Shown here: piece by piece, positions 12,901-64,000 of the stretch
Layout of the letters: every line of letters starts with the position of its first letter
How positions within the stretch are numbered: the first letter of the stretch is position 1
Source of the DNA: Klebsormidium nitens
Lineage: Eukaryota; Plantae; Klebsormidiophyceae
Assembly (NCBI GenBank): GCA_000708835.1
Contig: DF237435.1
Location: 5,306 to 69,305, forward strand
DNA: 64,000 bases
Reading direction: 5' to 3'
Program-made: the position numbers and the translations under genes
The notes under the pieces: generated by a model
Told to the model about the DNA's origin: nothing
Database searches by the model: none
What the model saw: the letters and a program-made list of their open reading frames with translations, nothing else

Positions 12901-15900
12901 CCCCCAGGCGCCACCGCTGCCCGCTGGTCCGCAGGGGGGGCTGTTCCCCAAGCGCATCGCGCGTGGCCACGTCCAGGTCGAGCAGCTCGAGGCCGTCGTG
13001 CAGCTCCGCCGAGGGCGGCGCCTTCATCCGCTCCACTGCGTACGCCGCCTGGGCAGAGTGCATCAGCGCCAGCCGCAGGCGCAGCACGTCCCGCGGGGAG
13101 CGCTGCCCCGCGCGCACCGCTGCGTACTGGGCGTGTGCTGCGGCGTCTGCGGCCTTCTTGTGGCCCTCCAGAATGCTCTGTCGGGACGCACCGCTGCTGT
13201 CGCTCTCCAGAAACTTGAGCGTCAGCTCGGCCTGCGCCCCCCGGCCCAGCTCTCCTGGGGACGGAGTCGGCAGTCGGAGATGGGGGAACAGAGGGGGGCG
13301 GGCGTCGGTGGCAGGCGGTGCCCGCTCTAGTTCCGCGGTGCCGCCCTGAAGTTGCTTCAGCACGGCAGGCTCCTCGTAGAGCAGCAGGGGCTCTGCGCCG
13401 CCCGGCGTCGGCTTCCATTGCAGCGGCACCTTGCGCGACACGAGCGCCCACTCCAGCGGGGTCCGCCCCGAGAAGCCCAGCAGCCGGCCCACGTCTTGCG
13501 CACGCCGCGCGTCGATCTCCGTGCCCCAGGAACAACCTTGCGCTGCCAGCTTGTCGAAGAGTGGCGCGTAGCGCGTGCGCTTGTGCTGCAGGTCCGCCAG
13601 CAGGAAGCCGTGCAGCAGCAGCGCGCCCTCGTTGGGGTTGCGCGGCCGCGTTGCCTGCGCGCCGTAGCCGGGCCAGGCAGTCAAGGTGCGGAAGGGCCCC
13701 TCCAGCACGGCCAGCCAGTGCTGCGCGCGCGCACACACCCGCAGCTGCTGCTGTTCCTCCGTGCTCAAACCCGCCACTCCGAACTCAGCCCCCGCTGCGC
13801 CGCTGGTTGCCTCCGTAGACTGCCCCTGGCTCGCAATCGTCTCTGGTCGCAGGGTGGCCCCCTCGCCTGGCCAGCGCATGTTGTACCCGTCCGGCAGGAT
13901 CATGCTCCTCCCATCAAAGACATAGAGCGCCTCGTTCCGCAGCAGCAGTGGCGTGAGCTCGCGCAGGAAGGCCAGGTTCCAGGCGTCCCCTTGCTGCTGC
14001 GTCAGGCGCGGATACGTCAGCCCCTCCAGGCACCCCGGGTTCACCGCCGTGTTGTACAGCACCGCCGCCACGTGCAGCCCCAGCAGCCCGTCCGTGTCCA
14101 GGTCAGCGGGCACGGCGACCCCCGGCCCCGTTTCGAGCGCGGTCCAGTCCGTCGCCAGCCCGAACTCTGCGAGGGCGTCCTTGAAGCCCGCAAATGCCGC
14201 CTTGAGGTCGTCCGTCTGCTCGGGCGGGAGCTGCCCCGCGACCGCCTGCCCCAGCAGGTCCGCAAAGCGCTGCAGCGGCTCCACGCGTGGCGCCTCTACT
14301 GCGGCCGCCAGCCACTCCGCCACCAGCGTCTCCGCCTCCAGCTCGCCCGAGTCCGCCGCCACCGCGTACGCCGCTGCGCGCTGCACCATCTCCCGCGCGG
14401 CCGCCACCACGCCGGCGCTGGGCGGCAGCTGGCCCGAGTACATGTTGCGCAGCACGTGCAGCGCGGGCCACAGGCTCGCCTCCACCTCGCGCCCACGCCC
14501 CTCCAGCGCCGCTCCCCGACCCCCGCCGGGCCTCTTCACAAATGATTGAATTGCCCGCTGCGCATCCTTCGACTCAGGGTTCTGCCACAGGCCCCGGGGC
14601 ACCATGTCTAGGCCGGGCCTCGCTTCCCCCTCGCCCACCATCGCCCCGCTGCTGCTTTCCTCCCCAGCTCGCACATTCGAACGGCCCACCTCCGCTCGCC
14701 AGTGCCGTTCAAGAGCGCGCCACCAGGACCGCAGCAATACCACCCCCTCAGCATTGCCCTGCGGGAAGGCCGCTCCCGCGTGCTGTCGCAATACGGCGGC
14801 CCCCTGGCCCCCCTCCTGTGCCGCGGCTGCCGCCCACGCCTGGCCGTCCACTGCCGCCTTGATGCCGTCCAGCTGTGCCTGCGCCGCCGCAGGCCGCCCC
14901 TCCAGTGCGCGCCCCCACTGGAGCAGCAGCATCTCCACCTCCCCCAGTGCCGCCTCCACCGTGTGCCGCTCGTCGCCCCTGCACTCCGCCCACTCTCCGC
15001 GCACCCCTTCCAGCTTCTCCCGCGCCCACACTGCAATCGCCACCTGCTCCATTGCTGCCACCGCTGCTTCGTTCTGCTCACCGCCCGCCTCGTCCGCCTC
15101 ACCCGTCTCGTCCGCCACGTCTTCTTGCCCCTCCCTCGCGAGCAGCCACAGCGCGGTTTCCCGCGGCTTCCCGCTCAGCTCCGCCATGACGGCCACGTCG
15201 TCCTTGCCCAGCAGCTGCCGCACCTTGCGTGCGTGGTGCTCCACGTCTAGCTCCGCGCGCGTCAGCGGCCACGCAGGGTGGTCCACGGACGGCCCCGCGC
15301 CCGCCTCCACCTCCGCCACCATTTGCAGCTCCGCTTCCAGCAGGTCCAGCTCGCCACCCTCCCCCGTGGGCAACTCCGCATTGGCCAGCAGCGCGGTCAA
15401 GTCTTCTGCCTGATTCGTGTTGGTTGGCCGGAGCGCGTCCCACCGCTGCAATGCCTCGTCCAGCTTGCGCAGCTGGTACTTGAGGGTCCGCACGCGCGCC
15501 GCAAATTGCGGATCGACGCGCGCACCGGCAGCTTCCGTGGCGCGCGCATCCAGCGGCTGTGCTGTGCCCACCACCAACTCCGGAACCTCCTCCTGTGCTC
15601 TTCCTCTTTCCCCGACCACAGCCGTGACGAGCTCCGAACTCAACCCGCCTCCCGAATTGCCTGCAACTTCCAGACCTTGGCGTGTCTCCTCTTTTGAAGG
15701 CGTCGCTTGCCTCGTTTCCCGCAGAACCGCCGCAGCAGAAGTCTCTCCTCCAGTACTGCTTGATGGCGCGTCAGCTTGGCGCCCTTGCGTGGGCCCCTTG
15801 TTACCCGTGACCACCACTTCCATCCCTGGACTCCCCACGTTCCTGCCGCTCTTCTTGTTCCCCCACGGTCGCCACCCCGACCTCCCTGCGTCCCCCACTT

Positions 15901-18900
15901 TGTGCTCTGCCGCCGCTCCTTCCCCTCGGGCGCGCATGCGGTCCAGTAACGTCTCCAGCACCTCCATGCTCGCACCGGCACTCTTACCCGTACCCACCCC
16001 CCGTTCGTTTCGCCCAGCCTTTTGATTGCTGCCCCGAGCTGCCTCCCCATTCAGTGGCGACTTGGCATCGCTTCCTGGTGGCCCTTCCAGGTTCCAAGCT
16101 TCCGTTTCAGAAACCGAGCTCCCGCTCGTGCCAGCTTCGAGTTGCCTCGAACTCAAGTGCTCGCCATTGCCCTCGAATCTTAAGCTTTCTCTCACGTCAA
16201 GCCCTCCAACAAAGGTACTGCTGTCGCCCCCGTCTGCTGTCTGTGCGCTGCCCTCCCCCCGTGATGCTTCAACCACCACCTGCTCCCCGCTGCTCGCACC
16301 TCGCTCGCCCTGTTCCATAACCCCAGGGGGAGTACTTCCATTCGGAAGGCCGCCTGGGTTCGCGGTAGTGTCCGTCGTGGCTAAGGGCGTGCTAGGCGTG
16401 GTGCGCCCTTCCTTGGCCTGCCTGGCGTCCACCAGCTCCAGGGCAATCTGCAGTTCAAGGGGCACACGAGCAGAACATTCAGTCGGTGAAGCTAGCAGCT
16501 CTACGCAAGACCAGCTGTTGGCGCTGGCCGCAGCAGATTGTCCGCAGCTGCTGCGCTCTACCAGAGAAAAACCAAAATGCTCCTGATGGCTTCAGAACTG
16601 CTGATCGTGGCAGACACATGATCGCGCATGACCTGCGCAGGCTGGACAGGCAGTGCATCGGGGCAGCCCAGGGGGGCGGACGTTGTGTCCCCAACAAGCC
16701 TGTTCAGCAGCAAACAAAACCTTGTGCATGGAGTGCAGCCACTGCTAGACCGTGGCTCGCACCTTTCTGCAGATCTTCTCGAGCTGGCGCTCCATGCCGC
16801 GGCACCCCGCTTCGAAGGTGTACTTGGTGGCAATCGCCTCCAGCACGGCGTCCGTGATCTCAACCTGCACCGCTAGGCAGATCCTTGTCAACACAACAAG
16901 GACTTACGGAGGCAGAATCTGTTGACAGAGCTGTTCAGAACAGCCGTCCTAGCCTCGCAAATAGTCGAGAGTTGAACCCTCAGCGATGAAAACGATTGAT
17001 TGAACCGCAAGCTTGCTCTGACAAGCTCAACTTTTGGAAACTGAAACAGGTCTAGGAATGTCGTTCTTCTGCGGGCTTTCTCAGCCACACCAGCACTCCG
17101 CCAAGTCACGTCTGACTCAACAACCTTTTTGGCGGAAGGAAGTGGGCAGCTTTACCTGGTCCGGCGCCAGGCCGACCTTGTCCTTGATCTTGGGCAGCAG
17201 GAAGCGCTTGGCGATGTGCACCTTCTCCGCGGTCGAGTACCCCGACAGCTCGATTGTCTCCATGCGGTCCAGCAGCGGCCGAGCGATCTGGCTGATGTCA
17301 TTCGCGGTGCACACAAACAGCACCTGCGCACCAGCAGGTGGGCCGCTCAGACTTGAGCGGACGGCAGGACAAACCTACATCCGACTTCACTCGAAATGAG
17401 CACGAGAACCCTGTGAGCTTCGAAGGCCGCAATGGTTTTGGAAGGGCCTGCCACCATGGCCTGCCACCAGAAGAACCAAGTTCGATACACGTAGCAAAGT
17501 CTTCCCTGTGTTCTGACAAGTTCCTTGAATCTCCTTCTGTGGGCTTATTACAGCTTATTATCCATCAACTCGACAGATTCTTTCTGCACGTCTAAACGGC
17601 ATACGCGCAATGCACCCACGAGATCAGAGCTACGCCTGTGCGTGCCCGTCTGCCCGTCTGCCCGATGCTTGTGCGCGCTCACCTGCGAGAGGTTGAGGCC
17701 GACCTCCATGTAGTGGTCCTTGAAGTCCTTGTTCTGCTCGGGGTCCAGGATCTCGAGCAGCGCCGCACCGGGGTCGCCGCGGTAGTTGGCGTGCGCCATC
17801 TTGTCCACCTCGTCGATGAGCACCAGCGGGTTCATGACGCCCACCTGCTTCAGCGCGCCCACCACCTTGCCCGGCTCGCTGCCCACGTACGTGCGGTTGT
17901 GCCCCTTGAACTCAACCGGGTCGTTCAGCCCGCCCACGCTGCGCGGCGCAAAGAGAGGCAAGATGAGACAACGCTACCGGAGAACAGAGTACTTCGCCCA
18001 CGGTTCTACACCGCCATGTCAGTTTTAGTAAGGCAAAATCCTTCGACACTGACATATGAATGCTGACGAGTCGAGACTATCAACGAGACACTTCGACCTC
18101 CTTGCAAGCTCTGGAAAGGGCAGGTGGCTTCTCCAGCCGTTCATCAGGTTCGCAAAAGAAAGAGCAGCGCAAGACACATCTTGTGCCTGCCTTCCTCTGA
18201 TCCAATTCAATTTTTCAGACTTATCCGGGGAGGGCCGAAACAGCAAGGAGCGTGCTGACCTCATGCGGTGGAACTTGCGGTTGAGTGCGCGCGCCATGCT
18301 CTTGGCGATGCTGGTCTTGCCCACCCCGGGGGGCCCGTGCAGCAGCAGGATGCGCCCCTGCGTCGTGCCCTTCAGCTGGCTCACAGCAATGAACTCCAGC
18401 AGCCGCTCCTGCCAGAAGAGGAGGCGCACGCGCCTTCAGATCTAGCGCTCACCGTGCGAATGCTCTGTTATTTGAAACTGGTCGTCGAACCTGAAGCAGA
18501 ATTAGAAGCCGAGCGAAGAGAAGCGAACGCGCATGGCAGCAGGCCCCAGGGTGCACAAAACGGCAAGGTGCTGAAAGTGAAAAAGGGACAATGGAAAGTA
18601 AGAGCCACAACGGGGGAGGCAACCGAGGTAGCCGCACTGTGCAGCACGACACACAGTCCAGACACAACCAGGACAGGGCACCCAGGACAGACACCGGTCA
18701 GAAAAGCAAAGCTGCTCGAATCCTCGCATCCTCCTGATTAAAGATCAGACTCCAACTTTTTGGGGCCACGGGTTGTTTGCTGCTGCCCCTCACCTTGACT
18801 TCCTCGAGGCCGTAGTGGTCTTCCTCCAGGATGTTGCGCGCCTCCGCCACGTCATAGCGCTCGCGCGTGGTCTCCCCCCACGGCATGAGCGTCATCCAGT

Positions 18901-50755: not shown

Positions 50756-53535
50756 CTACTCCACACTTCTTCTCAGTGGACCAACCTCGGCCGGCTCCTC
50801 TCCTATCGGCGTAATACCACCCTGCTTATCATGCTCGTGCCCCGTCATATCCTTCCGCTCCGCCACCGGAGGTGCTTCAGTCCCGGGCAGGCGGACCACC
50901 ACGATCGGCACGCCGCAGTGATGCACGCAGTAGTCGCTGACGCTGCCCATGCGCGCATCGCGGCGAGAGGCGCGGCGCGTGGCGCCGAAGCCCTTGCTGC
51001 CCATCACGACCGCGTGGCAGCCGAGGCGCTCCATCTCCAGGCAGATGCGCTCCTTCATGTCGTGGTCCTGCGGGGCAGGGCAGGATGTGAAGAAGGAAGT
51101 GCAAAGACCAAAATACTGAGTACGACAATGTTCGGAGATGTAGAAACGTTGACTGGTTTCGGATACGTCACCTCGAGGGTCCACCATCTTAAAGGGAATG
51201 CGACTCTTCGTGTCAATTCTGACGATCATCGGCGAGAGCTTTCAAAAATGAGATTGTGTCAGAAGAGGCAGCAAGAAAACATGACAAGGATGAACAGAGC
51301 GGCAGTCATGCAGGTGAAACTCTTTATGGTCCACATTTGCCAGGCGTCTTCGAGACGTGGTCTTGGAGATGGCAGTATCGGACAAGGAGGAGCAAGACTA
51401 TTTGGACAGAACGGACAACGAAAAGGCGGGAAGACGACAGCGGGGCGAGTGAATGCACTAAGTTTTGAAACTCGTGCCCAGCTTTTAGATTGAAGTAACA
51501 ACTGACCGCAGCCATACGAGGCACACCTCGTCCGACTGTTTGAAGAGAGCGCAAACGGAGAGGGCTCACTCAGGATCAGGGAGTCGATCAGGTGAAGGAT
51601 GTTCAAAGGCGCCAGAAGCAGACCCGAAGAATAGGGATACTATAGGACCAGTGCAGAAGTGCTTGATTGCTGGTATCGTCGCCTATGAGCAAGTAGAACC
51701 ATGGACATAGAGAGCGCAGCCTGCCTGCAGCCCCGCAGCAGAGAATTAAGAAACGGTTTAGATTCTAAGCTTTTGACTTCGAAACAGGCGAGTACAGAGA
51801 CAGAACTTTCACGTCAAAAGCCTTAGGAAACGGCCCGCACCTTTACAATATGTATCCGGTAGCTTATCCCCGCATCCTTCAGGGGTTTGCTCAGCTCCTC
51901 CGCCTTGCCCTGCATCAAAGAGCGACTACATGAGTAAACTTTGATAAGGCGAATGATCGAGTTATTCAGGGACTTTCGACCTTCAAACCACATTCATCTT
52001 CATCGAATTCTTTCTGGCTTTCATCAACCTTAGTAGTCGATGCAGTAGAAACATCAAATGCAGCGGGCCCTCTCAACAAGTGACAGAGAATTAGTGGAAA
52101 AGGATGGACTACAAGGACAACGAACTTCTGGAGTGAAAAACCCGTCCCCAATTAACACAGTACTTTGGACATGCGTTAAACACATAGAGAGCTTTCACGG
52201 AGGCAGGGGCTCTTGAGGTCATTCTTTGGATGGGGAATCGACCAGGTCTCCTACAGAAATCAGGCCCAGTTAAAATCACAACTTCTGGAGAAGTGTGCAC
52301 TATTGCCATGTTCTCAGCTCTCTCCAAATCATGCATGACAGTTCATGTCTGCTTCATCCGAATCCAGGGCGCGATCCTCCCAGAAGCAGGTCAAAGAGAC
52401 TACAGAACACACATAGGCACGAAATGGAGAGCCAGGTCAAGATTACAGCGCATAAACCTGAAGAACAGGAGCAATGAAGTGGCCCAGTGAACATGCAGTT
52501 TCAAACACTGTCGCACACACAAGTGGGGTCACAACCTAAAGGAAAACTTCCTACCCAGCAGCTATCTCAAATAGTAAAACCAGACCAAACCTTCATGACC
52601 AATGAGTCGAGCCAAGTCCACCTACCAAAGTCAGTGCATCAAACTCCTTCTCAGTCTCCTCCGTATGCCCTCTCCGCCCTGGGTACTGCGGTCCCCAATC
52701 AGCTCCATACAGGCCACTGGTAGGTTGGACATGGAGCACTATCACCTGCCGACATGAACTTCCTCATTTGGGAGGGCTGATTGTTTCCACAAGTTGTGTT
52801 CCTTCACCGAGAGGCCATTTCTCCTCTCACCATGTAGTACAGAAGAAGAGGAGTTCTCCTCACGGCAAACCGCACTCTGCCTGATTAATCTATGGATACT
52901 TTCCTTGGTTTATGTATCGATACTGCACAGTTCAAAAAGACTAACACATCCCAGGTAGTTAGAGAGTAGCTGCGCTGTAAGCAAACACGAGAGTGCTTGA
53001 CCAACTTGACATAGGGCCTTTCTCCTGCTTGACTCTAGATAGTGAAAATTATGAGGAGTGACTGACATGAGGATTGCAAATCAAAATCTCTGCACGCCAT
53101 GACAATATATCGAACTGTTCCTTCATCCCAACATAAAGTGCCAAACCAGATAGACTGGCCTTTACAAAACAAAGCGATGCAGGTTTGCAGTTTCTAGAAT
53201 TTCGCACTTAATGCCACCATCCTTGAATTCTTGTAGTTGCCCCTTCTGCCATTTCAATCTTTGTCAAATATGATTGTAGCCACTGAAGAGCTTTTAACGA
53301 CCTTTCAACATTTCAAAAAGAAAGACATTCAACTTCTCAAGTGTGCTTGTTTTGCGACTCTCAGATGGTTTGCTCTTTGGAAAGCAGAATAAGGTGGGAG
53401 GGCAGAAGCATGATACATGCTCACCTTATCAGTCTTCCTCAAGTAGTTCTCCACGGCCCACTGCAATGCATAAGAACTCTCTTCAGAAAGGTCGACGCTA
53501 ATTGCAATTCTTCGCTCTGTCGGGGGAATTGCCAT
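50756..53535 (-). CDS. Universal stress protein A-like, PHOS32/PHOS34 type (4 exons, 203 aa)
   Basis: Exons 53535-53425, 52745-52626, 51909-51841, 51067-50756; RRIAISVDLSEES, VLHVQPTSGLYGADWG, VKDHDMKERICLE, VMGSKGFG, GSVSDYCVHH. Confidence 0.92.
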
Positions 53536-55178
53536 TGTGTATCACACCATTAGCTACCCTCCTGGGATCCCCCTCAGCATACACACTGTGCCCAGAAGGT
53601 GCACCAATCTTTCGGCACCAATTTGAACGCCTGAGGAGAGTCTAAAAGCGGCTCTTTTGCGCCCATTCACCCATTTCAAGCTGTGCTTTCTTAGGCAACT
53701 TCAACTTCAAGCTCTTGCATGCATGACCACTTGACTTGACTTGACTGGCGCTTCCGGCGCCTCGCGACCACTGGCAGCTGCACCAGCTGCTATCAACCAT
53801 GGACCTCTAGACCACCACTGAGGTAAGAAGTGGCCACCCTCCTCTACCTATGTAGGGATGTCGGAAGAATTTTCGGGGGTATGGCCAGTCTGTTCTGCAG
53901 CAAGTATCATGTAGTGAACGGCCCCCCAGCCAGACCCAAGTCTGTCAGGTTCAGAATTCTTGGCATTCGACGACCCCAGCCAGTTCGAAAAGGGACTTCC
54001 ACAGGTTTCCGTTTGAGCGTTACATCCCGTTGACTTTTCGACGAGGACTGACGTGGCAGGTTAGTCTGAAAACCGATGAACTGGTCAAGCGAGCCTAACT
54101 TCCCTCAGGACTGCGGAACAATGGCTTCCTCCCTGTTCACCATGGTTATGGCTCCCTCAAGCCTACCTCTTCGACATGGTGCACCTGTTGAGTGTAATCA
54201 ATCAGGTGTTTCTTTCTTTTTCTTATAGAGCTGTAATGCTACGGAGTCTTCTGGGCTGAAAGCAGTCAGAGGCTGACTTAGCATTACACTCCAGACTGAA
54301 GACAGGGGGGCTTGGTGTTCTGTCAGGAACCCTGTGGACACAGGCGTCTGCCCACGCCACCTCAGCTAAAGTTGCTTCGTTGTCATCTGGGCAATGATGA
54401 CTTGGACTCTTTGAGACCATTAGGCCTGGATTTGACAAAGGATTGAGACTGCAGTAGTCATCCATGTCTAGTTGCCAGGGGGGAATGCCAGGCAAAGTGT
54501 TCTGCACAAAGCAAGCACAGAACTTAGGCTCTAGTTTCACTAGCGGCGGACGGCACAAGGTTTTCTTTTTCAAATTCGCTGATTGGCTCCGGCTACATCG
54601 GAACATCTCTACCGCGCTTCCACTAGCGGTTGTGCCGGCGGAACTCGAATAAAATTTGATGACGTAAGCGGCACAACAACTAATTAAGTTCGACCCTAGT
54701 GCCACCTTGGGTCGAACTAAATTGTTTTTGTGCCGGCCTCCCATGTGGTCCGATGGACCACTCACATAGCGCCAGGTCCTCAAGTTGGCGGGCACATTTC
54801 GCGCCAGCTACGGTGCACTCCGCAGAGTCTGCACTGGCAGCACAACTGCTCTTGACACATCTGTGGTGAAAGCAGAAGCTCGTCAGCCTTCAGGTGGCGC
54901 GGGAGAGGTTTAGGGGTTTGCCTGCCACCGTGGCACGTTTGGAGACTCTTGTGCCGGCGGTTGTGCCGCGACGCAGTTTCACTGGCGGCCGGCAGAACTG
55001 CAATTTTTTCGCATTTTTTGGACTTCCGGGCAAGTTCCAGGCACCAAATAATTAAATTTAATGTTGTGCCGTCCGCCGCTAGTGAAACTAGAGCCTTAGA
55101 AGGGGATGCTGCCAATACCAATGCCATTGCTGGACACCATGGACGGGCTGTTGTCTTTGCTTTTAGGTTGGGATCACC

Positions 55179-58100
55179 TTGAAAATGCCTAGGAAGAGTG
55201 CAAATCAGAAGAAAGTTGCCAGCGCAAGCGCAGCCAGGTGGAAAGCCCAAAAGCAGGAGAAGGAGCTAGAGGCCTTGCGTGTAGAGGTTGCTGACACTTC
55301 AGTCACACTTGAAGCAGCTGCAGCCTCTCACTCCCTACAACTGACTCAAGAAAGGGCTCTTCATGCTGCTGAGATTGAGCAGGTTAGACTTGAATGTGAA
55401 GCAAAGCTCCAAGAGCAAAGAGAAGAAAAAGCAGAACAGGTTGCTTGCCTGACTGAAACATTGGCAGAGTTGATTGAACTGCATGAAACTCTTCAAGCAG
55501 ATGCTTTAGATTATGAGGCCCTAGAAGAAGAGCGTCTTGATGCAGAACTGCAGATTGAGGAGCTAAAGGGCTGCTTATCGAGGAAAGAGGTTGAAGTTGA
55601 AAGTCTGAACGACCAGATCGCTGTCACAGTTGAGCAGAGACGTTTGCTTATTGAATCACTTACTGCTAGAGAGTCTGGGGGCATAAGCACCGAAAAAGTA
55701 AGGCAGCTTATACTGCTCTTGATCAAGAAATCAAAAACTTGATTCAACAAAAGAATAGGATGGTCAAGAGACTTGAGAAAGCGAGGGAGCAGAGGGAGGC
55801 TGGTCTTCTGCTCAAACTCACTAATACAGAGTTGAAGTTGGAGCTCAAAGCTAAAGAAGCAGATCTGTTTGAACTTGAGGCAACTCATGCAGCCCATGAT
55901 CTTGAACTTCTAAAGCAGGCAAAGCAAGAAGCAGTGGATCAGATTGAGAAACTCGTGCACGAGAATAGACTATCTCGAGCTAGGGAGGCATACGCTAAGG
56001 ACAAGAACTCTGAACTTAGGACTGAAGTGGAAGAGAAAACCCATCAGTTAGACGAAGCTTTGAAGAAACACAAGCAGGATCTAGAAAACCTTTTGAAAGG
56101 CACCAACGTCAACACTAAGCGAGGGCGCATCTTTACTGACTCTGTTAGGACTGTGTATTACAAACTGATCGCCCTCAACGTTCCAACGAACAGAATCCAT
56201 GAAATCATTAGAGCAATATTGGGGGAGTTTGCTCCAGATGTAAAGCTTGGAAACCTGCCTTCAAGAACCACTGCATCGCACTTCAGGAAAGAGTGCGTAG
56301 GACTTGCATATCAGCAGACAGCAGATATCCTTGGAGGGTCCGGCGCGCATAAGTATCAGACTCTAAATGTAGACGAGGCTTCTAAGCAGAAGAAAGGTTT
56401 TCTTGCGACGGTGCAGACCACCATCATTGATGGTCAGCGCAAGTCGTTCGTCTTGGGTTTGAAAAGGACGTTCCACAAGACGGCAGTAGGCGCGTTGGGT
56501 AACTTTGAGAAGTTGCTTGAGGACATTCAGCTTGTCAATAGCAGAAGACTGGGACCTGGGGAGACGCTCAGACTGATCGTCAACATTCTTGAGTACACGG
56601 TGAACTCCCAAACAGACCGGGGCGCTTCTGTGCTCAAGTTTGTCACTGAACTCTTTCCAAAGTTCCGCGCAACTTTCCTTGCAAACTACAAGGAGGGGTG
56701 GGCCGACTTGACTCCTGAACAGCAGAAGCGTCTTTCAACAATTGTTGCGCACGATTGCAACAATCACTTCTGGCACAATGTTGGCGTCGCGGCTCTCAAA
56801 GGTCTGCATGACTTTGAGAACACCTACTTTGCTGAGGCAGCGGCGGCGGTCAGGGGCAAGGGGCATGCTTGCGCGGCTGAAGCTGCCGTCTGGGCGGCCA
56901 TGAAGGACTTTTCTTGGCGCGCTTCCGAACAATCCGGCTTCGGGGCGCAGGTTCTCATTGAGTGGCTGGAGCAGATGACAGACAAGCATTTCGAGGACGC
57001 CGATTTTAAGGCGCAGCTCGGAAACCGCTTCAATGTGGTTTACGAGAATGCTGGTGGGCTCTACCACCTATTGGACGGCATCCTGGGCTTCTATGAAGGT
57101 TAGTCACTCTGGGCAATTATCTTCACTGAAGGATTAAGTGTTGTCCAGACTCATCAGTCAGTGTTCAGTGTTCTTTACTTGGCAATTGTCCGGGTAAGAT
57201 AGTAACTTGGCTGGCGGCATCTCAGTCTGGGGTTGTGTCAGGATGAGTTGGTAAGGCACTGATTGCATTCAGCCAGTTAGGACCAATCAGAAGCGGTGCA
57301 CTTAAAAGCCAAGAAAGTTTGCGTGTTCGTGAGCAACCTGTTTTGGTCAAGGCGCAGTGCACCTTAGTCTGGACAATAATTCTTAGTGAGCATTCTCTTT
57401 CAGTCAAGGTGCGGTGACTGGAGGATAAGGTGCTCTTGTTCTGGACTCCCAGCGCTCAGTTCAAAGATAGTTTCGTTGACAATTTGTTTCCTTCCTACAG
57501 AATCTTCGAGCACCTCAGCCGCAACGGGCGGCTACTTCAACCTACTCCATGTGGCGGTGGCTGCTCAGCTGTCCGATCCTGTCATCCAGGCACAACTCCG
57601 CGTCATGGGCCTCATCAACGCCCAGATCTTTCACCCCTGGTTCAAGAGGATCCACCAGCATGGCAACATTTTGGCGCTGAACGCACTGTACAAGAAGCAA
57701 CGGGAGGACCTGGCGGCGCTGGTGGAAGACCCGTCCCATTTCATGGACGGCTCTTACCAAGCACTGCCGGACCTGCCGACAACCAGAGACAAGATTTTCG
57801 AGTCTCTCATAGCCCCAAGTAAGCTTTTTAACTTTGGTAGTCCTTTGCACTTCACGTGTCCTCTTGGGAAGTGATGACCTGTAGGTGCTAAAAAATAAGA
57901 TGGTGACGGGATCAGCGCGGGCACTTTGTTCAGGACATGTGCAATGAATTTCTCTTCTCGTCAAGCTTACCCCACTTGGCTGCTTCATTTGCGTCATGGC
58001 GTTTTTGTGACGTCACTGTAGGTAGTCCACTGTTGAATTTGCGATGTCACTACAGGGCCACTTTAAGATTCCTTGTCTACTCCTCCAGATCACAACCTTG

Positions 58101-60076
58101 AAGTCAGTTTGGCTCTGGCTATAGGGTGCTCTGATTGGTGTCGTCTTTCAGTCTGTGCGGATTCTCAATTCCGTCCGTACTGGTGATCTTCGTAACCCGA
58201 ACATAATCACCTTTTTTCACGACCTTTCTTCACAGGTGCGAACGACGCGATGGTGAAGGACATGCTCGTGTACAGCCTCGGAGCGGTGCTTGCCTACCTG
58301 CAAGTGGTGAAGGAGCAGTACCTGCCGGGAGGAGACTTGTGGGAGCCGGACGAAGAGACCTTTCGGATGGCAGAATCGGTGCCGCTGCACACGGATAGGG
58401 TAGAGGGGGTTTTCGCTCAAGTCGAGTCGATTCTCCGGAGGTCGCCGCGCATGAGCATGCTGACCGCTGAAGGGCAGGTGCTCGTCACTGCCAACAAGAC
58501 CATCGCTTGGTTGGTGAAGCAGGCGGACAAGGCGGACATCATCACAGCGGCGCGCAAAAGCGTGTCGGGCTTGGAGAAGAGCGCGAAAGACCAGGAGACC
58601 GAGGGGCGTGAAGACCGCCAGGCGGAGCGCGCGCGTGTGCTCGCTCTAGCGGCCCAGAAGCTTCTCGCCGAGCAGGTCGAACGTGCCCGTCTGTGCGACG
58701 CTCTGGAGGAGCTTCGCTGGTGGAAGACTGCGGACGACATCGACGCAGGGCTGGCTCGAGTCGAGGTGAAGCTCCGTGAAGAGAGTCCCGACCTGCACGG
58801 GAGGTCGTTCGATGCTGCTTTGAGGGGGGAAAAGAAGGACGCGTTGATCGTCCAGCTGCAAGGGTTGCAGAAAATTAGGAAACTGGGGGCGCCGGCAGGG
58901 AACCCAAGCGCGTTTCAGAAAAGCAAGGGGGGTAAGGACTTTACAGTGGACGAATTGATAGCGAATCTTCTCAGCGTCCTGACTTCCGGTCGACAGCCAG
59001 CCCCAGCAGTTGGGGAACTAGACGAGAATGGGGACGAGGTTCTTCCTCCGGGGCGGCGGACTGTACGCCCGGTCGAACAGCAACAGCTCTTGCGAGAGCG
59101 AGACGCTGAGACCAGGCGGGTTGCTATTCTGTCAGCGCAGGAGCGGCGGGCGCTTGAGGATGAAGCAAAGGCGAAGGAGTTGGAAAAGAAGGAGGCGGAG
59201 AAGAGGGCAGCGGCAGAGGCTCGGGCAGAAACTTTGCGGCTCAAGACGGAGGCCGCAACGTTGGCTAAAGAGAAACGGGCCGCTGAGCGGGCAGCCGCCA
59301 AGGAGGAGAGGCTTCGACAAAGGAGGGGCCTGGGGGCTCAAACGGGGCAGGGAATGTTAGAGGCAGACGCAAATTTAGAGGAGCAGCCGGGGGGCAGCCC
59401 CGAGCACGAGCAAGAGGAGCGCGCGGGCGCGGAGGAGCAGCCCGGGGGCAGCCCCGAGCGCGAGCAGGACGAAGGCGCCGGGGCGGAGGAGCAGCTCGGG
59501 GGCAGCCCCGAGCGCGAGCAGAACGAAGGCGCCGGGGCGGAGGAGCAGCCCGGGGGCAGCCCCGAGCGCGAGCAGGACGAAGGCGCCGGGGCGGAGGAGC
59601 AGCCCGGGGGCAGCCCCGAGCGCGAGCAGGACGAAGGCGCCGGGGCGGAGGAGCAGCACGGGCAGTACGAAGGCGCGGACGCGAAGGAGCAGCCCGGGGG
59701 CAGCCCCGAGCACGGAGCCCATGTGAGCGCGGGCGCAGAAAAGCAGCCGGGGGGCAGCCCCGAGCAGAGCCAGAACTTAGTCGGGTGCACGGCGCAGGAA
59801 CAGCGTGGGGGAGAAGCCGAGCACGGTCAAGTCGATCGGGCGGAAGGGGGGGGTGAACACAATCAAGGCGAGGTTGTGCGTGCGCCAGACGAGCAGGCGA
59901 CATGGGAAAGCTCGGTATTGGGCGGCGTCGTGGTCGGCCGCAGAAAACGAAGGTCGAACCAGAAAAGGAGACCGAGGAAAGTCTTGCTCGGGTCACCAAA
60001 TGCGGAAGCGGTCACAATTGGCAAACGCAAAAGAGCTCCTACTAGGGATGCAATGTTTGACTATAATGAGCATTAG
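55179..60076 (+). pseudogene. Transposase (RNase H-like DDE with CxxH), two introns and one apparent frameshift, about 1360 aa if repaired
   Basis: Segments 55179-~55680 (coiled coil), ~55681-57098, 57501-57818, 58236-60076; introns 57099-57500 and 57819-58235 are GT-AG phase 1. Putative catalytic D (LNVD, 56372), D (QTDRG, 56615), CNNH (56756), GNRFN, E (DRVEG, 58403). Frames shift near the G5 run at ~55677-55681. Confidence 0.75.
59378..59775 (+). repeat. 54-bp coding minisatellite (EEQPGGSPEREQDEGAGA, five full units plus degenerate copies) in the transposase tail
   Basis: Unit gaggagcagcccgggggcagccccgagcgcgagcaggacgaaggcgccggggcg repeated in tandem with few substitutions. Confidence 0.95.
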
Positions 60077-61385
60077 TTGAGTTGTCAGTTATTTATTGAT
60101 TCTATCATTTGAGTAGCTTCCAACTTTCACATTGCACATTAAGTATTGATCAAACGACCTAGCAAATAAAATGGATGTAGCATTGGCTTTCAATGAATGA
60201 TCGGATCAGATCAGATGCGCTGCGACGGTTGTGTTTCTAGATGCCGGCGCCGTTCTTCCAGATGTATATTGCGTTTTCTCTGCATCGCGGTCATGTATCA
60301 ATATAACGTCAAGCATTGAAGGCTCAATCATGATTCAAAGAAATTGAATACGATCGAAGTTTGAACGATCGAATGGTTGATACGTTGTACAGTTTAACAA
60401 TTAAAATAGCGGACTATGATATAGAAATCGGGGTACATGATATATGAATGCCGTTTATATGAACGCCCAACTATGAATATGATTCTATCAATATCAGTGC
60501 CGTTTATGCCATAAACGCACGGGCGTGATCAATATGTTTTCGGATTCATTGAGGACTTCGGTGTTTATGGTATACATATTGCCATCATGAAAGTTGACAT
60601 GATCTGAACCATTCCGATTTAAAACACTGTGGCCATCATGATTGACTAAATATATCTGGATTTTGGCTTACTAAAATAAGAAATTCCAGTGCACATATTA
60701 AATTCGTAAGTGGTACCGAGCATGCATTGACTCGACGCCATCAATCACATATAAATAATCTAGATTGATTTAGTGGCGGGCCAACTTGCCTACGTTTGGT
60801 AACACATTCAAGAGCAGTCACTAGAGCAGGCTCGTTGCATGGCAAAATGTCGGAAGGCAAACGCCTGGTTGACTATTATATGATGGTCAGCAAGTAGCAA
60901 AATGGGCAGCAAAAATACTGTGTTGACGTGAATCGAACCCGAGTGATCTTGGCAAAGTCGAACCATTGCGCTGCATCAAAGACTTTAAATTCATGAGAAA
61001 AAATATTTATGTACTAAATTGAGCCTACAGCCGAGCTTGCCTAGGCTAGCACGTAAATCGGTCCGATCAAGCAAGTAAATCGGTCCGGTCACTGGTCAGC
61101 CCCCGAATCGGTCTGGATCCTAACCGATCATGCAGTACCGGTCGCGCGCGCATTCCTGCCGGTGCGGACGGTACGATTTGGTCCGGACACAGAAATTTGA
61201 GAGCCGTCCGCAGAAAGTTCGATCGACCAGTTGACCACGGTCCTCAGCCAAGGAAGTCGCGGTCAACGGGCCGGAGCCTCGGAAAGTGAATTTTCGAACC
61301 TGCCGAAACTTGACTTACCTGGGGGTTCGAACTGAGTAAAACGCTTCCCGCGCAGACTGGACCTACCCCCCCGGCACCGTTAAAA

Positions 61386-64000
61386 ATGCTACCGACATCC
61401 CTACTCTATGTGCTTGCCCTCCTAAGTTTCCCCCCGGCCTGTGGTCCCGCCCAAAGTACACATCCTGAGAAGTATGCCTCCTTTATAATAGGCAATGGAT
61501 CCCCCTTGCCGGTGGCGGGGGACCTTTGCTGGCATGTTTCTTCCCTGCCGTCGGCGGGAGAGCATTGCAACAGGACAGGAGTTGCTCAAAACCACACCCT
61601 GCTGGTTGCGGGTGTTGGTGGCGAGGCATACCTATCGGAGCAACCATATGTGTACACCACAATATGCCAAAGCCAAAACATTGACAAGCACCCGGACAAT
61701 CTCTGCTGTGAGTCCATGAGCACACATATGAGGAAGCCCTTCTTTAAAAATTTGCTGAGGATGAGGCCAACTGGACCAGGACCACCCACTTCTCAAAAGC
61801 CATCACAAAAGCTGCTTTTGGTAGCAAATGTTCTTGAAAAAATCTGGAGCAAATTACGAGGCTTGTTTTTACATGCCTTTACAGCCAAGACATACTCATG
61901 TACTGTGCCTGAGCTACAAGGAGCTTTTCCAGCTGCTCCCATGCTAATTGACAACCTCCCCCGTGAGGGCAGCCATTGTGCAGACTCCTTCACCTTCCTT
62001 CAGGCTCAGCACATCACCTCCTCCTTCGTGGAGGGGGGTATTCACACTTTCCGGTTGACTTCGAGCATTCTCCAATCGTACGGTTTCAATCATCGGCGTT
62101 TTGAAAGCTGCCGACTGCCTAACCGATTGGACGGTCCAAACCAAGTTACATGCAGAACTTACGCATCATGCGGTGCCGCCACCTGGCGCGCGAAGCGCGA
62201 CCCAATCATTGCCCGAGCGCCACCTCTTCCACGGCCGATCAAAATCGTACCCAGCTGCACGAGCACCACCCCGTTGAAGTTGCCCACCCCAGGCACTTTC
62301 GCTCCTTCGAACAGGAGCATTACCCAATCGAAGCTGCCCACCCAAAAAACCCAGGAAACCCAGGAAACCCAGAAAACCCATACTGATCTTTGCTCCTTTC
62401 TACAAGCTCTTCTACTAGCGTTCTTCGTTTGGCACTTGGCAGCCTGGCACTCTCGGGCCAATAAGATTTTCCTTAGAATGCAGATATACTACGCCGCAAT
62501 TTCGCTTAGGTTGTCAGGTAGAACCCGACGGATCCGACATCTATGTGCCGTACTGCACAGTCAACAAAAGCGCTTTCGGAAAAGGTCTCGTTCGGTATTT
62601 ACTTTTACAGCACTATTAGTTTCTATAGCAACGTGCAACTGCATTGTGCCAACGTCCTATGTGGTCAGCCGAGTACGGTGGCGCAAACAATCACGAACAC
62701 TGCCGCATCGGATCGGAGAGATTGGGTCATTTATTGACGATGCTATTCGCACGATGCACGCTGCGAATGGACTCACATTGAAGGCTTTTCTACACGAATT
62801 GTATCGGTCACATCCAATGTGCTGGACCGCACGATATCATATTGCACATGCAATACTAGCATCACATTCCATATTGTATGGTATCGCCGAAGCAAATGCT
62901 TTTCTAGGTTCTGTCCTTATTCTGTCGTTCTGCAAACTATTCATTGGTTTCGCGACTAGAAATGTTTCAGTCCTTTCTTATTGCGGTAATCTATTGTCTT
63001 CACTTATTTTTAGCCCAATGAGCTTCTTTGCGACAATCATCTGGGAATATCTTCAAGACGAGTATAGCGCAATTACTCGAAGCCTCCGACCTTGCCGACA
63101 AGTATGTCGCCTTTCCTGTATATACTTCCATCTTCAAAGCTGTTTGCTGCTTGTGTCAATAAAATACACGATCACCAATCCAGCTCATATGTGGTTATTT
63201 ATCTTGCTTCTGATCTGCGGGGATATTCATCCGAACCCTGGACCTGTTGAATCATCCGTGACTGATATGCACATTGACAACAAACATACACCGGTCGCTG
63301 TAAGTGAGTCATTAAAAATTCTAAACTGGAATGCACGAGGCTTAGGTGGCGTGCATGATCACAAGAAAAAAGAACTTTTGAAATACATGGATACGAATAA
63401 CATTCAAATTTCCATTATTACCGAAACGCGAGAAGCGGTTGGAAAATATAGTCAATCTCAAATAATCGAAGATGGTTTCACTATTTTTAAGGCGTCATAT
63501 TATGATAAGTCGCACACCGCCAAATTCCTAAGTCTTGACCAAATGATCTGGGGGGTGTGCCTTATTGTAAAATCAGGTCTTGCGTTCAACATTCAAAAAG
63601 TCAATAATTCTCTTCTTGGCGCTCGTCTAATACACGGAACCCTTACCGTGCCAAACAAATCACATACTGAGACCGAGCCAACCACTATAGACATCATTGG
63701 TATATACGGTCCTGCTTCAAAAGATAATGCCGTCAATGAGCCATTTTGGACCGCTCTCAAGGAATACATTCAAAAATTCCACAAAAAATACATTTCAGAC
63801 TTTGAAAGCGGTACTCGGCAATTGATCTTAGCGGGGGATTGGAACAGTTACCAAGATCCAGGTATGGATATTTATCGAGAGTATACGCTGGCCGGTTCTG
63901 AAAACGTAGATTCCAACCTACAAGATTTTCTAACAAACCTTTATGATGAAGACGGAATCTATCTTACGGATCTAATGGCCGCCTCCAAACTAGGTCCGTA
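61386..64000 (+). CDS. Partial polyprotein (at least 871 aa, runs off window): secreted/membrane-like N-terminal region, 2A-like motif, APE (EEP-family) endonuclease; probable non-LTR retrotransposon ORF
   Basis: Hand translation finds no stop from 61314 to 64000; absent from the ORF track presumably because it is unterminated. LLLICGDIHPNPGP at 63204-63245; APE motifs LKILNWNARG, IITET, IYGP, LAGDWN from about 63310. RT domain not visible in this window. Confidence 0.8.
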   Translation, partial: MLPTSLLYVLALLSFPPACGPAQSTHPEKYASFIIGNGSPLPVAGDLCWHVSSLPSAGEHCNRTGVAQNHTLLVAGVGGEAYLSEQPYVYTTICQSQNIDKHPDNLCCESMSTHMRKPFFKNLLRMRPTGPGPPTSQKPSQKLLLVANVLEKIWSKLRGLFLHAFTAKTYSCTVPELQGAFPAAPMLIDNLPREGSHCADSFTFLQAQHITSSFVEGGIHTFRLTSSILQSYGFNHRRFESCRLPNRLDGPNQVTCRTYASCGAATWRAKRDPIIARAPPLPRPIKIVPSCTSTTPLKLPTPGTFAPSNRSITQSKLPTQKTQETQETQKTHTDLCSFLQALLLAFFVWHLAAWHSRANKIFLRMQIYYAAISLRLSGRTRRIRHLCAVLHSQQKRFRKRSRSVFTFTALLVSIATCNCIVPTSYVVSRVRWRKQSRTLPHRIGEIGSFIDDAIRTMHAANGLTLKAFLHELYRSHPMCWTARYHIAHAILASHSILYGIAEANAFLGSVLILSFCKLFIGFATRNVSVLSYCGNLLSSLIFSPMSFFATIIWEYLQDEYSAITRSLRPCRQVCRLSCIYFHLQSCLLLVSIKYTITNPAHMWLFILLLICGDIHPNPGPVESSVTDMHIDNKHTPVAVSESLKILNWNARGLGGVHDHKKKELLKYMDTNNIQISIITETREAVGKYSQSQIIEDGFTIFKASYYDKSHTAKFLSLDQMIWGVCLIVKSGLAFNIQKVNNSLLGARLIHGTLTVPNKSHTETEPTTIDIIGIYGPASKDNAVNEPFWTALKEYIQKFHKKYISDFESGTRQLILAGDWNSYQDPGMDIYREYTLAGSENVDSNLQDFLTNLYDEDGIYLTDLMAASKLGP
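62340..62381 (+). repeat. 9-bp tandem repeat (ACCCAGGAA-like, TQE/TQK x4-5) inside the polyprotein ORF
   Basis: acccaaaaaacccaggaaacccaggaaacccagaaaacccat read directly. Confidence 0.85.

What the first reader, a model, noticed from the sequence alone, without database searches (positions are those of the whole stretch)
61386..64000. Retroelement-like polyprotein: membrane glycoprotein-like module fused via a 2A-like motif to an APE endonuclease
Seen: one stop-free frame of at least 871 codons. The first 619 aa have a signal-peptide-like start (MLPTSLLYVLALLSFPPACG), 12 Cys before the first membrane segment, N-glycosylation sequons (NRT 61569, NHT 61590, NRS 62310), a furin-type RAKR site (62187-62198), a Thr/Pro-rich stalk, a hydrophobic helix (LCSFLQALLLAFFVWHLAAW, 62388-62447) followed by a strongly basic stretch, and several more hydrophobic segments (62595-62666, 62892-62954, 62970-63044). 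Then GDIHPNPGP and an APE domain. Established: APE precedes RT in non-LTR retrotransposons, whose ORF1 proteins are normally soluble nucleic-acid chaperones; signal peptide, Cys-rich ectodomain, RXKR site and TM anchor is the layout of viral envelope glycoproteins. Inference: a LINE-like element that may carry an envelope-like or captured membrane protein released co-translationally, an arrangement I do not know from non-LTR elements. Caveat: the residues after RAKR are not an obvious fusion peptide.
Basis: partly seen in the sequence, partly recalled or inferred. Interest (0 to 1): 0.88.

Follow-up and report, generated by a model that had tools for sequence, protein, structure and literature searches.

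The report
LINE with conserved hydrophobic-basic leader module
This is a LINE-type jumping gene, interrupted by a second transposon that supplies the apparent start codon, and it shows no sign of a viral envelope; its relatives share an unnamed ~290-residue water-repelling, positively charged module ahead of a ribosome-skip-like motif, which likely holds the element's RNA at a membrane.

Summary
The 871-codon frame and its listed motifs are real, but the envelope reading fails. The ATG and codons 1-6 lie in the right inverted repeat of a 7.55-kb DNA transposon (53853-61403) inserted into the element; the element's own upstream DNA is at 53852 and below, with an in-frame stop four codons before the junction. 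The 'ectodomain' (aa 7-334) evolves neutrally in the differences listed, and its cysteines, sequons and RAKR are not kept in relatives. What is conserved is aa ~335-611: hydrophobic helix, Arg-rich stretch, hydrophobic helix, P-x-S-x-V..R-W-R-K..R..P, more hydrophobic helices, then a 2A-like motif and APE. It occurs in 10 lineages under 60% identical, 282-312 aa before the motif, matches no Pfam family, and relatives continue into RT most like R2 RT (Dualen/RandI-like; second endonuclease not seen). 2A-like motifs before APE are known; the His variant is often weak. Best reading: a single-ORF LINE whose leader module stands in for ORF1, likely membrane-associated and RNA-binding, partly split off or throttled at the 2A-like site. 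New variant of a known kind.

The parts
53536..53852 (+). 5' part of the LINE, left of the inserted DNA transposon; exact 5' edge unknown (bounded by the start codon of a USP gene on the minus strand at ~53535)
   Evidence: Letters that precede 61399 in a contig of run X5 (11 of them also in two contigs of X8) lie exactly at 53816-53836 (0 matches in 100 shuffles); USP exon by Pfam
53824..53826 (+). TAA in the frame of the long ORF, four codons before the junction; overlaps a splice-donor-like GAG|GTAAG
   Evidence: also in the loose end of X5 record 3
53853..61403 (+). 7,551-bp DNA transposon inserted into the LINE; hAT-like by its ends and recalled catalytic motifs; transposase exons 55167-60076
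   Evidence: inverted ends 19 of 21 identical; imperfect target duplication; X5 holds the right end followed by other DNA; no Pfam or PDB hit for the transposase pieces
61383..61403 (-). right terminal inverted repeat; contains ATG 61386 and codons 1-6 of the reported ORF
61404..62387 (+). variable in-frame spacer (aa 7-334), the supposed ectodomain; first own in-frame ATG at 61716
   Evidence: neutral-level amino-acid change, indels mostly in frame, no fold, related only to the closest relative P0002
62388..62738 (+). conserved core of the module (aa 335-451): hydrophobic helix, Arg-rich stretch, hydrophobic helix, P-x-S-x-V..R-W-R-K..R..P..D
   Evidence: 10 cores under 60% identical; R379 and S424 10/10, R398 L410 R431 R433 9/10, K434 P440 D451 8/10
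62739..63218 (+). C-terminal half of the module (aa 452-611): further hydrophobic helices, pattern kept but little identity
63219..63245 (+). 2A-like motif GDIHPNPGP (His in place of the canonical Glu) after a hydrophobic helix
   Evidence: activity untested here
63312..64000 (+). APE endonuclease domain, cut by the window edge
   Evidence: motifs WNARG, ITETRE, YGP, GDWN; Foldseek LINE-1 EN; 70% identical to P0002, 50-54% to P0017/P0018
54527..55095 (.). nested 569-bp element with inverted ends and TTA on both sides (Harbinger/Tourist-like by recall) inside the DNA transposon

Best explanation
This is an interrupted copy of an APE-RT non-LTR retrotransposon whose long frame begins with a family-wide ~290-residue hydrophobic, arginine-rich module that likely stands in for ORF1 by binding the element's RNA and tethering it to a membrane, and is likely split off or throttled only part of the time at the 2A-like motif. 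Shown: the element type, the transposon insertion and false start, the conservation and fixed spacing of the module, RT in relatives. Inferred: ribosomes cross the variable spacer (kept open but free in sequence), make the module, and at the 2A-like helix either skip (free APE-RT), read through (tethered polyprotein) or stall and fall off (excess module, low RT dose); the Arg-rich stretches bind RNA; the hydrophobic helices sit in or on a membrane. Where translation starts is not known (Met111, a spliced upstream exon, or a longer 5' part lost from this copy).
For: Module found by a library-wide profile search (85 proteins E<=1e-3 of 1.84 billion; extension-only hits such as P0066 9e-23, P0072 1.4e-19, P0089 1.9e-9). 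19 of 117 held proteins match the core; 12 of the 19 carry the 2A-like motif downstream, 6 end within 61 aa of the core, 1 (P0091) ends 242 aa after it without a motif; in the 8 with whole module and motif the span is 282-312 aa with 3-5 hydrophobic segments. Held-out P0065 5e-14 and P0036 4e-9 against best shuffles 0.4 and 0.1. 20-24 Lys/Arg against 1-6 Asp/Glu in 100 residues in 4 of 4 lineages. Hydrophobic segments at about -280, -210, -105, -75, -19 from the motif; 1 marginal peak downstream of the motif in 8 proteins scanned. From aa 335 on 9 of 14 listed differences are synonymous (p 0.005); 7 of 10 non-zero net indels in contig pieces are multiples of 3 (p 0.02, pieces not independent). 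8 of 42 motif occurrences in the family have canonical Glu and P0036 has two motifs in tandem. Of 10 tested D(I/V)HPNPGP peptides 5 were active in some way, including all 3 with a hydrophobic upstream helix like this one (PMC13405545 suppl. file 3). 2A correlates with absence of ORF1 (PMC3708506); no ORF1 fits between the USP start codon and the frame.
Against: No experiment, no expression data, no identified start codon. Both AlphaFold models are poor (pLDDT 45 and 43). My approximate insertion energies are marginal (about 0 to +1 kcal/mol with recalled scale values), and a second basic motif right after helix 2 fits badly with a simple two-pass topology. Global identity of the core between distant lineages is only 25-29% against 22-24% for shuffles, and the C-half is at shuffle level. 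Two deeply covered X5 pieces have net +11 and +22 bases and one X7 piece +1, i.e. frameshifts in the extension. The E-to-H motif of Crack-15_BF had very low activity; 5 of 10 tested His peptides did not skip; P0002 and P0018 have broken NPGP. P0089 has 779 aa in frame upstream, which may be a real ORF1-like region, weakening 'stands in for ORF1'. A relative (P0037) has other sequence before APE, so the module is not universal in the clade.
Confidence: 0.5

Rival explanations
1. The module is a soluble helical RNA chaperone or RNP scaffold; the hydrophobic helices pack against each other or form oligomers, with no membrane.
For: AF2 gives long continuous helices across hydrophobic and basic parts (H2-53, H59-97); marginal insertion energies; basic clusters on both sides of helix 2; conserved residues are mostly Arg, Ser, Trp, Pro.
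Against: 37-45% LIVFMW and only 4-6% acidic residues over 290 aa, 3-5 membrane-length segments in each lineage; the model is too weak to show a soluble core.
Confidence: 0.25
2. The whole upstream frame is a regulatory leader: it must be translated, but its product matters only as a hydrophobic/basic signal that stalls ribosomes or sends product to degradation, lowering APE-RT dose.
For: Spacer evolves neutrally yet stays open; leucine-rich 2A-like helices reduce protein output (bioRxiv 10.64898/2026.06.17.732966 section 12); low identity in the C-half.
Against: Position-specific conservation 170-240 aa upstream of the motif is more than a degron needs.
Confidence: 0.17
3. One reading: a viral-envelope-like glycoprotein (signal peptide, Cys-rich ectodomain, furin site, anchor) carried by a LINE.
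For: The motifs are present in this copy; a hydrophobic stretch YVLALL is kept by synonymous changes in two diverged contig ends (read by eye); P0036 also begins hydrophobic.
Against: Start codon is from a transposon end; Cys, sequons, RAKR not conserved; ectodomain neutral, unrelated across lineages, unfolded in AF2; no Pfam family at E<=5.
Confidence: 0.04
4. An unrelated host membrane-protein gene joined to the endonuclease only in this copy.
For: The first six codons are indeed joined only in this copy.
Against: Module and APE are contiguous in P0001, P0002, P0017, P0018, P0036, P0065 and others; no hit places the module in another context among proteins long enough to tell, except P0091, which ends before the expected motif.
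Confidence: 0.02

Closest known systems
APE-type non-LTR elements with 2A-like sequences (L1Tc/Ingi, CR1, Crack, L2, Rex1; PMC3708506, parts 2-3 of 6 read)
   Same: 2A-like motif with hydrophobic upstream helix in front of APE; frequent change of the key Glu (E-to-H in Crack-15_BF); mostly no ORF1.
   Different: There the motif is described in the N-terminal region of ORF2; here at least 600 open codons precede it, with a conserved multi-helix module; RT of relatives is closer to R2 than to L1 in PDB search.
Dualen/RandI LINEs (passages of PMC5029228, PMC9977147, PMC4640811, bioRxiv 10.64898/2026.06.17.732966; original description not held)
   Same: Green-lineage host; single long ORF; accessory domains N-terminal to APE (Josephin, SET, C48, PPR); 2A-like peptides reported in Haematococcus Dualen/RandI; basal position near RLE-type RTs fits the R2 hits.
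   Different: No Josephin/SET/PPR here; the hydrophobic-basic module is not mentioned in the passages read; RNase H and the second (RLE) endonuclease could not be seen.
Envelope-carrying LTR retrotransposons (errantiviruses; passages of PMC13524379)
   Same: Hydrophobic segments and a furin-like tetrapeptide in this one copy.
   Different: No gag/PR/IN/LTR context, module lies before the enzymes, no conserved ectodomain, no own signal peptide, all-helical.
Sea-urchin NLR 2A-like signal sequences (passages of PMC4981915)
   Same: A hydrophobic 2A-like helix giving two fates, membrane-targeted read-through and free downstream protein.
   Different: There a 26-aa N-terminal peptide on a host protein; here an internal motif after a long module.

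Membership tests
APE-type non-LTR retrotransposon (LINE) | APE endonuclease domain | tested here: met
APE-type non-LTR retrotransposon (LINE) | RT downstream of APE in the same frame | tested here: met
   in relatives P0020, P0027, P0028 and start of RT in P0002; this copy's own RT lies beyond the window and was not seen
APE-type non-LTR retrotransposon (LINE) | 3' tail and target-site duplication | not testable with these tools
   window ends inside APE; no genome held
APE-type non-LTR retrotransposon (LINE) | dispersed related copies | tested here: met
   diverged APE pieces on two other contigs of X1; several diverged contigs per position in X5, X7, X8
Dualen/RandI clade | both APE and a C-terminal restriction-like endonuclease | not testable with these tools
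   no held protein reaches past RT
Dualen/RandI clade | RT phylogeny within Dualen/RandI | tested here: inconclusive
   PDB search with P0020: 5 R2 proteins E 3.9e-11 to 7.3e-9, no L1 ORF2p among 9 hits at E<=1; no named Dualen reference, no tree
Dualen/RandI clade | N-terminal protease-like accessory domain (Josephin and others) | tested here: inconclusive
   none in this copy; P0037 has an OTU-like tail by recalled motif, no Pfam hit at E<=5
2A/StopGo element | D(V/I)ExNPGP core | tested here: not met
   DIHPNPGP; family: 33 His, 8 Glu, 1 Pro of 42 occurrences, 29 end in NPGP
2A/StopGo element | hydrophobic, leucine-rich helix at -19 to -10 | tested here: met
   HMWLFILLLIC; criterion
2A/StopGo element | ribosomal skipping activity | not testable with these tools
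   published His-variant peptides split: 5 non-skipping, 2 skipping, 1 fall-off, 2 reduced level
viral envelope glycoprotein | own N-terminal signal peptide | tested here: not met
   ATG and codons 1-6 from the transposon end; in-frame stop upstream
viral envelope glycoprotein | conserved Cys-rich ectodomain with cleavage site | tested here: not met
viral envelope glycoprotein | fusogen fold | tested here: inconclusive
   models of low confidence
hAT DNA transposon (the insert) | short inverted ends starting TAGGG | tested here: met
   hATm ends TAGGGTG in PMC6004678 passages
hAT DNA transposon (the insert) | 8-bp target-site duplication | tested here: not met
   7-base match interrupted by 4 extra bases on the left
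hAT DNA transposon (the insert) | hAT transposase domains | tested here: inconclusive
   no Pfam or PDB hit on unspliced pieces; D, D, CxxH, E motifs read by recall

The most novel reading that the evidence does not exclude
A basal LINE lineage of green algae uses a dedicated multi-pass membrane protein, made from the same frame as APE-RT and dosed by a 2A-like switch, to build membrane-bound replication or export compartments for its RNA, in the manner of RNA-virus replication-organelle or movement proteins, possibly allowing passage between cells.
Probability: 0.12. Interest if true: 0.85.

Novelty: new variant of a known kind. Interest (0 to 1): 0.52.

Why it matters
Non-LTR elements are thought to work as soluble ribonucleoproteins built on ORF1p. 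A conserved, Pfam-less, hydrophobic and basic module fixed in front of a 2A-like site would show a different way to handle the element's RNA in single-ORF LINEs and gives a concrete upstream product for 2A-like recoding, whose purpose in retrotransposons is open. The family is missing from named databases searched here and its RT looks basal, which bears on how APE-type LINEs arose. The case also shows how a nested transposon end can fake a signal peptide.

Tried and rejected
No genome held. Pfam on the 871-aa protein: 0 families; PDB sequence searches with APE and with profile A4: nothing meaningful. Longer-protein search with the APE region: 0 of 1778 candidates. Locus scans: metagenome 1 hit of 229 stretches, a bacterial false match; viral 0 of 26 and 0 of 29; prokaryote genomes 1 of 18, an unrelated CR1/L2-like LINE; so no DNA of relatives and no proper dN/dS. 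No RNA holder listed, which is no evidence on expression. Protein atlas gave no answer. Fold searches with the weak core model: BFVD none at E<=1e-3; VIA best Z 10.0, generic helical hairpins; these absences prove nothing. Rfam 0 hits: the U1-like ACTTACCTGG at 61316 lies in the DNA transposon and was dropped. My first idea that the LINE was simply 5'-truncated at 61399 was rejected when the upstream letters turned up at 53816. Contig depths in X5 (about 52 on the flank, 160-250 on the element) hint at several copies but were not used as copy number. Earlier-findings look-ups by sequence, place and full word list: nothing. A signal-peptide or TM predictor was not available; hydropathy scales were recalled values.

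Full report
Observation. The frame is open from 61314 to the window end, 871 codons from ATG 61386. A stop-free run of 614 codons has probability 1.7e-12 at this composition. A contig of run X1, possibly the source, matches 59751-64000 without a difference. Neighbouring genes are a PRP6-like splicing factor, an ABC-transporter-domain gene, a Lon-like exon, a KOW-motif ribosomal-protein-like gene and a universal stress protein gene; with introns and a transit-peptide-like start this looks like a green-lineage alga. My guess of a Klebsormidium-like host is recall and was not tested.

The start codon is not the element's. Laying contigs of three other runs on 61000-63400 showed one X5 contig following the window to 61403 and then leaving, and another matching from 61399 on (10 differences in 348) but preceded by other letters; two X8 contigs share the last 11 of those letters. 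Those letters lie exactly at window 53816-53836. Between them and 61404 sits a 7,551-bp unit with inverted ends 19 of 21 identical, transposase-like exons and a nested TTA-flanked element. So a DNA transposon, hAT-like by its ends (PMC6004678 passages) though its target duplication is imperfect, has jumped into the LINE. ATG 61386 and MLPTSL are in its right end. In the element's own DNA the frame is closed by TAA at 53824, four codons before the junction, next to a donor-like GAG|GTAAG; the first own in-frame ATG is Met111. The USP gene starts at ~53535 on the other strand, leaving about 290 bases for the 5' end of this copy: no room for an ORF1 here, but the copy may be 5'-truncated.

The family. 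A whole-protein search gave one relative, P0002 (1337 aa, 47% over aa 177-871); a shorter-protein search gave 14 and cluster look-ups longer members. P0020, P0027 and P0028 run from APE into RT (RVT_1). With P0020 the PDB returns five R2 proteins and no L1 ORF2p among 9 hits, a hint of a basal, Dualen/RandI-like position; no held protein reaches the C-terminus, so the second endonuclease is untested. The window's APE folds like LINE-1 endonuclease. A profile search of 1.84 billion representatives returned 85 proteins; the 10 looked up have no informative name or taxon.

What is conserved upstream. Local alignment scores between the extensions of P0001, P0002, P0017 and P0018 exceed window-shuffles (z 6.0-29, 0 of 200); P0009 is weak (z 0.3-5.3). 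A core of ~120 aa aligns in 12 proteins, 10 of them under 60% identical: hydrophobic helix, Arg-rich stretch, hydrophobic helix, then P-x-S-(W/Y)-V..R-W-R-K..R..P..D. An iterated profile hits 19 of 117 held proteins; 12 show the 2A-like motif downstream, 6 end within 61 aa, 1 ends after 242 aa without it; the whole module spans 282-312 aa in 8 proteins. Against this: global identity between distant cores is only 25-29% versus 22-24% for shuffles, and the C-half is at shuffle level; training members score well even when shuffled in windows of 10, so composition carries part of the signal. The region before the core is 210-779 aa in the six proteins that have a long one and is related only between P0001 and P0002; cysteines, sequons and RAKR do not align. 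Of the 40 differences I took from the listed rows (a small part of more than 1,200), 7 of 26 in aa 1-334 are synonymous (neutral 0.24-0.29) against 9 of 14 beyond (p 0.005; Fisher 0.04). Of 21 listed contig pieces, 12 have gaps; 7 of the 10 with non-zero net length are multiples of three (p 0.02, not independent), but two deep X5 pieces (+11, +22) and one X7 piece (+1) shift the frame.

Structure. Both AlphaFold runs are poor (pLDDT 45, 43): aa 1-322 without structure, aa 323-610 all helix, best at 330-400. Fold searches gave only generic helical hairpins. Hydropathy shows 3-5 membrane-length segments at matching offsets in each lineage and almost none downstream of the motif, with marginal insertion energies on a recalled scale.

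The 2A-like motif. 2A-like sequences before APE are known in several clades and go with loss of ORF1; E-to-H gave very low activity in Crack-15_BF (PMC3708506, parts 2-3 of 6). A 2026 preprint reports them in Haematococcus Dualen/RandI ORFs behind Josephin or PPR domains and finds that leucine-rich upstream helices cause skipping or reduced output (abstract, sections 10 and 12, passages). In its supplementary file 3, 10 peptides with D(I/V)HPNPGP were tested: 5 non-skipping, 2 skipping, 1 fall-off, 2 reduced; the 3 with a hydrophobic helix were all active. In this family 33 of 42 motif occurrences have His, 8 Glu, and P0036 has one of each in tandem; many of the 42 are copies of a few families.

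Mechanism. Shown: LINE, nested insertion, false start, conserved module at fixed distance from the motif. Inferred: translation passes a free spacer, makes a basic, hydrophobic helical protein that binds the element's RNA and likely associates with a membrane, and a leaky 2A-like site sets the ratio of module to APE-RT (0.5). Rivals: soluble chaperone (0.25), pure regulatory leader (0.17), envelope (0.04), chance fusion (0.02). This copy, cut off from its 5' end by 7.5 kb, is probably inactive.

Novelty. Searches on 2A/APE, Dualen/RandI, transmembrane or envelope-like LINE ORF2 and algal LINEs (listings, plus passages of PMC5029228, PMC9977147, PMC4640811, PMC3894237, PMC4981915, PMC13524379) showed no description of such a module. 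Repbase, the original Dualen paper and most subscription journals could not be read, and supplements other than those of PMC13405545 were not searched, so the family may already be catalogued.

Noticed in passing
window 53853-61403: Intron-containing DNA transposon with TAGGGATG ends whose transposase pieces match no Pfam family or PDB chain; one stop splits 55167-55742 from 55670-57103 frames; a 54-bp tandem array lies at 59324-59806. Also present in runs X5 and X6.
   Followed up: partly
window 54527-55095: 569-bp element with 97% complementary ends and TTA on both sides, nested in the DNA transposon.
   Followed up: partly
window 50756-53535 (-): Universal stress protein gene whose start codon lies only ~290 bases from the LINE frame, head to head; shared promoter or 5' truncation not resolved.
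   Followed up: partly
window 12023-16591 (-) and 11160-12089 (-): 1522-codon open frame without Pfam match, followed by an exon with Lon_C: a Lon-like gene with a very large unexplained exon.
   Followed up: no
P0036: Relative with two 2A-like motifs 43 residues apart, one canonical (Glu), one His.
   Followed up: partly
P0037: Relative with an OTU-protease-like tail (recalled motif, no Pfam hit) before APE instead of the module and without a 2A-like motif.
   Followed up: partly
P0089: 779 residues in frame upstream of the module, no Pfam match; may hold an ORF1-like region.
   Followed up: partly
window 63112-63114, run X5: A 10-base insertion that reads as a short inverted duplication, like a transposon excision footprint, shifts the frame in that contig.
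   Followed up: no
run X6 on window 57500-64000: Differences almost all C>T and G>A (381 and 338), as in bisulfite-treated DNA.
   Followed up: no
L002 1-3543: Intact-looking eukaryotic CR1/L2-like LINE ORF in a contig of a bacterial MAG, likely contamination.
   Followed up: no
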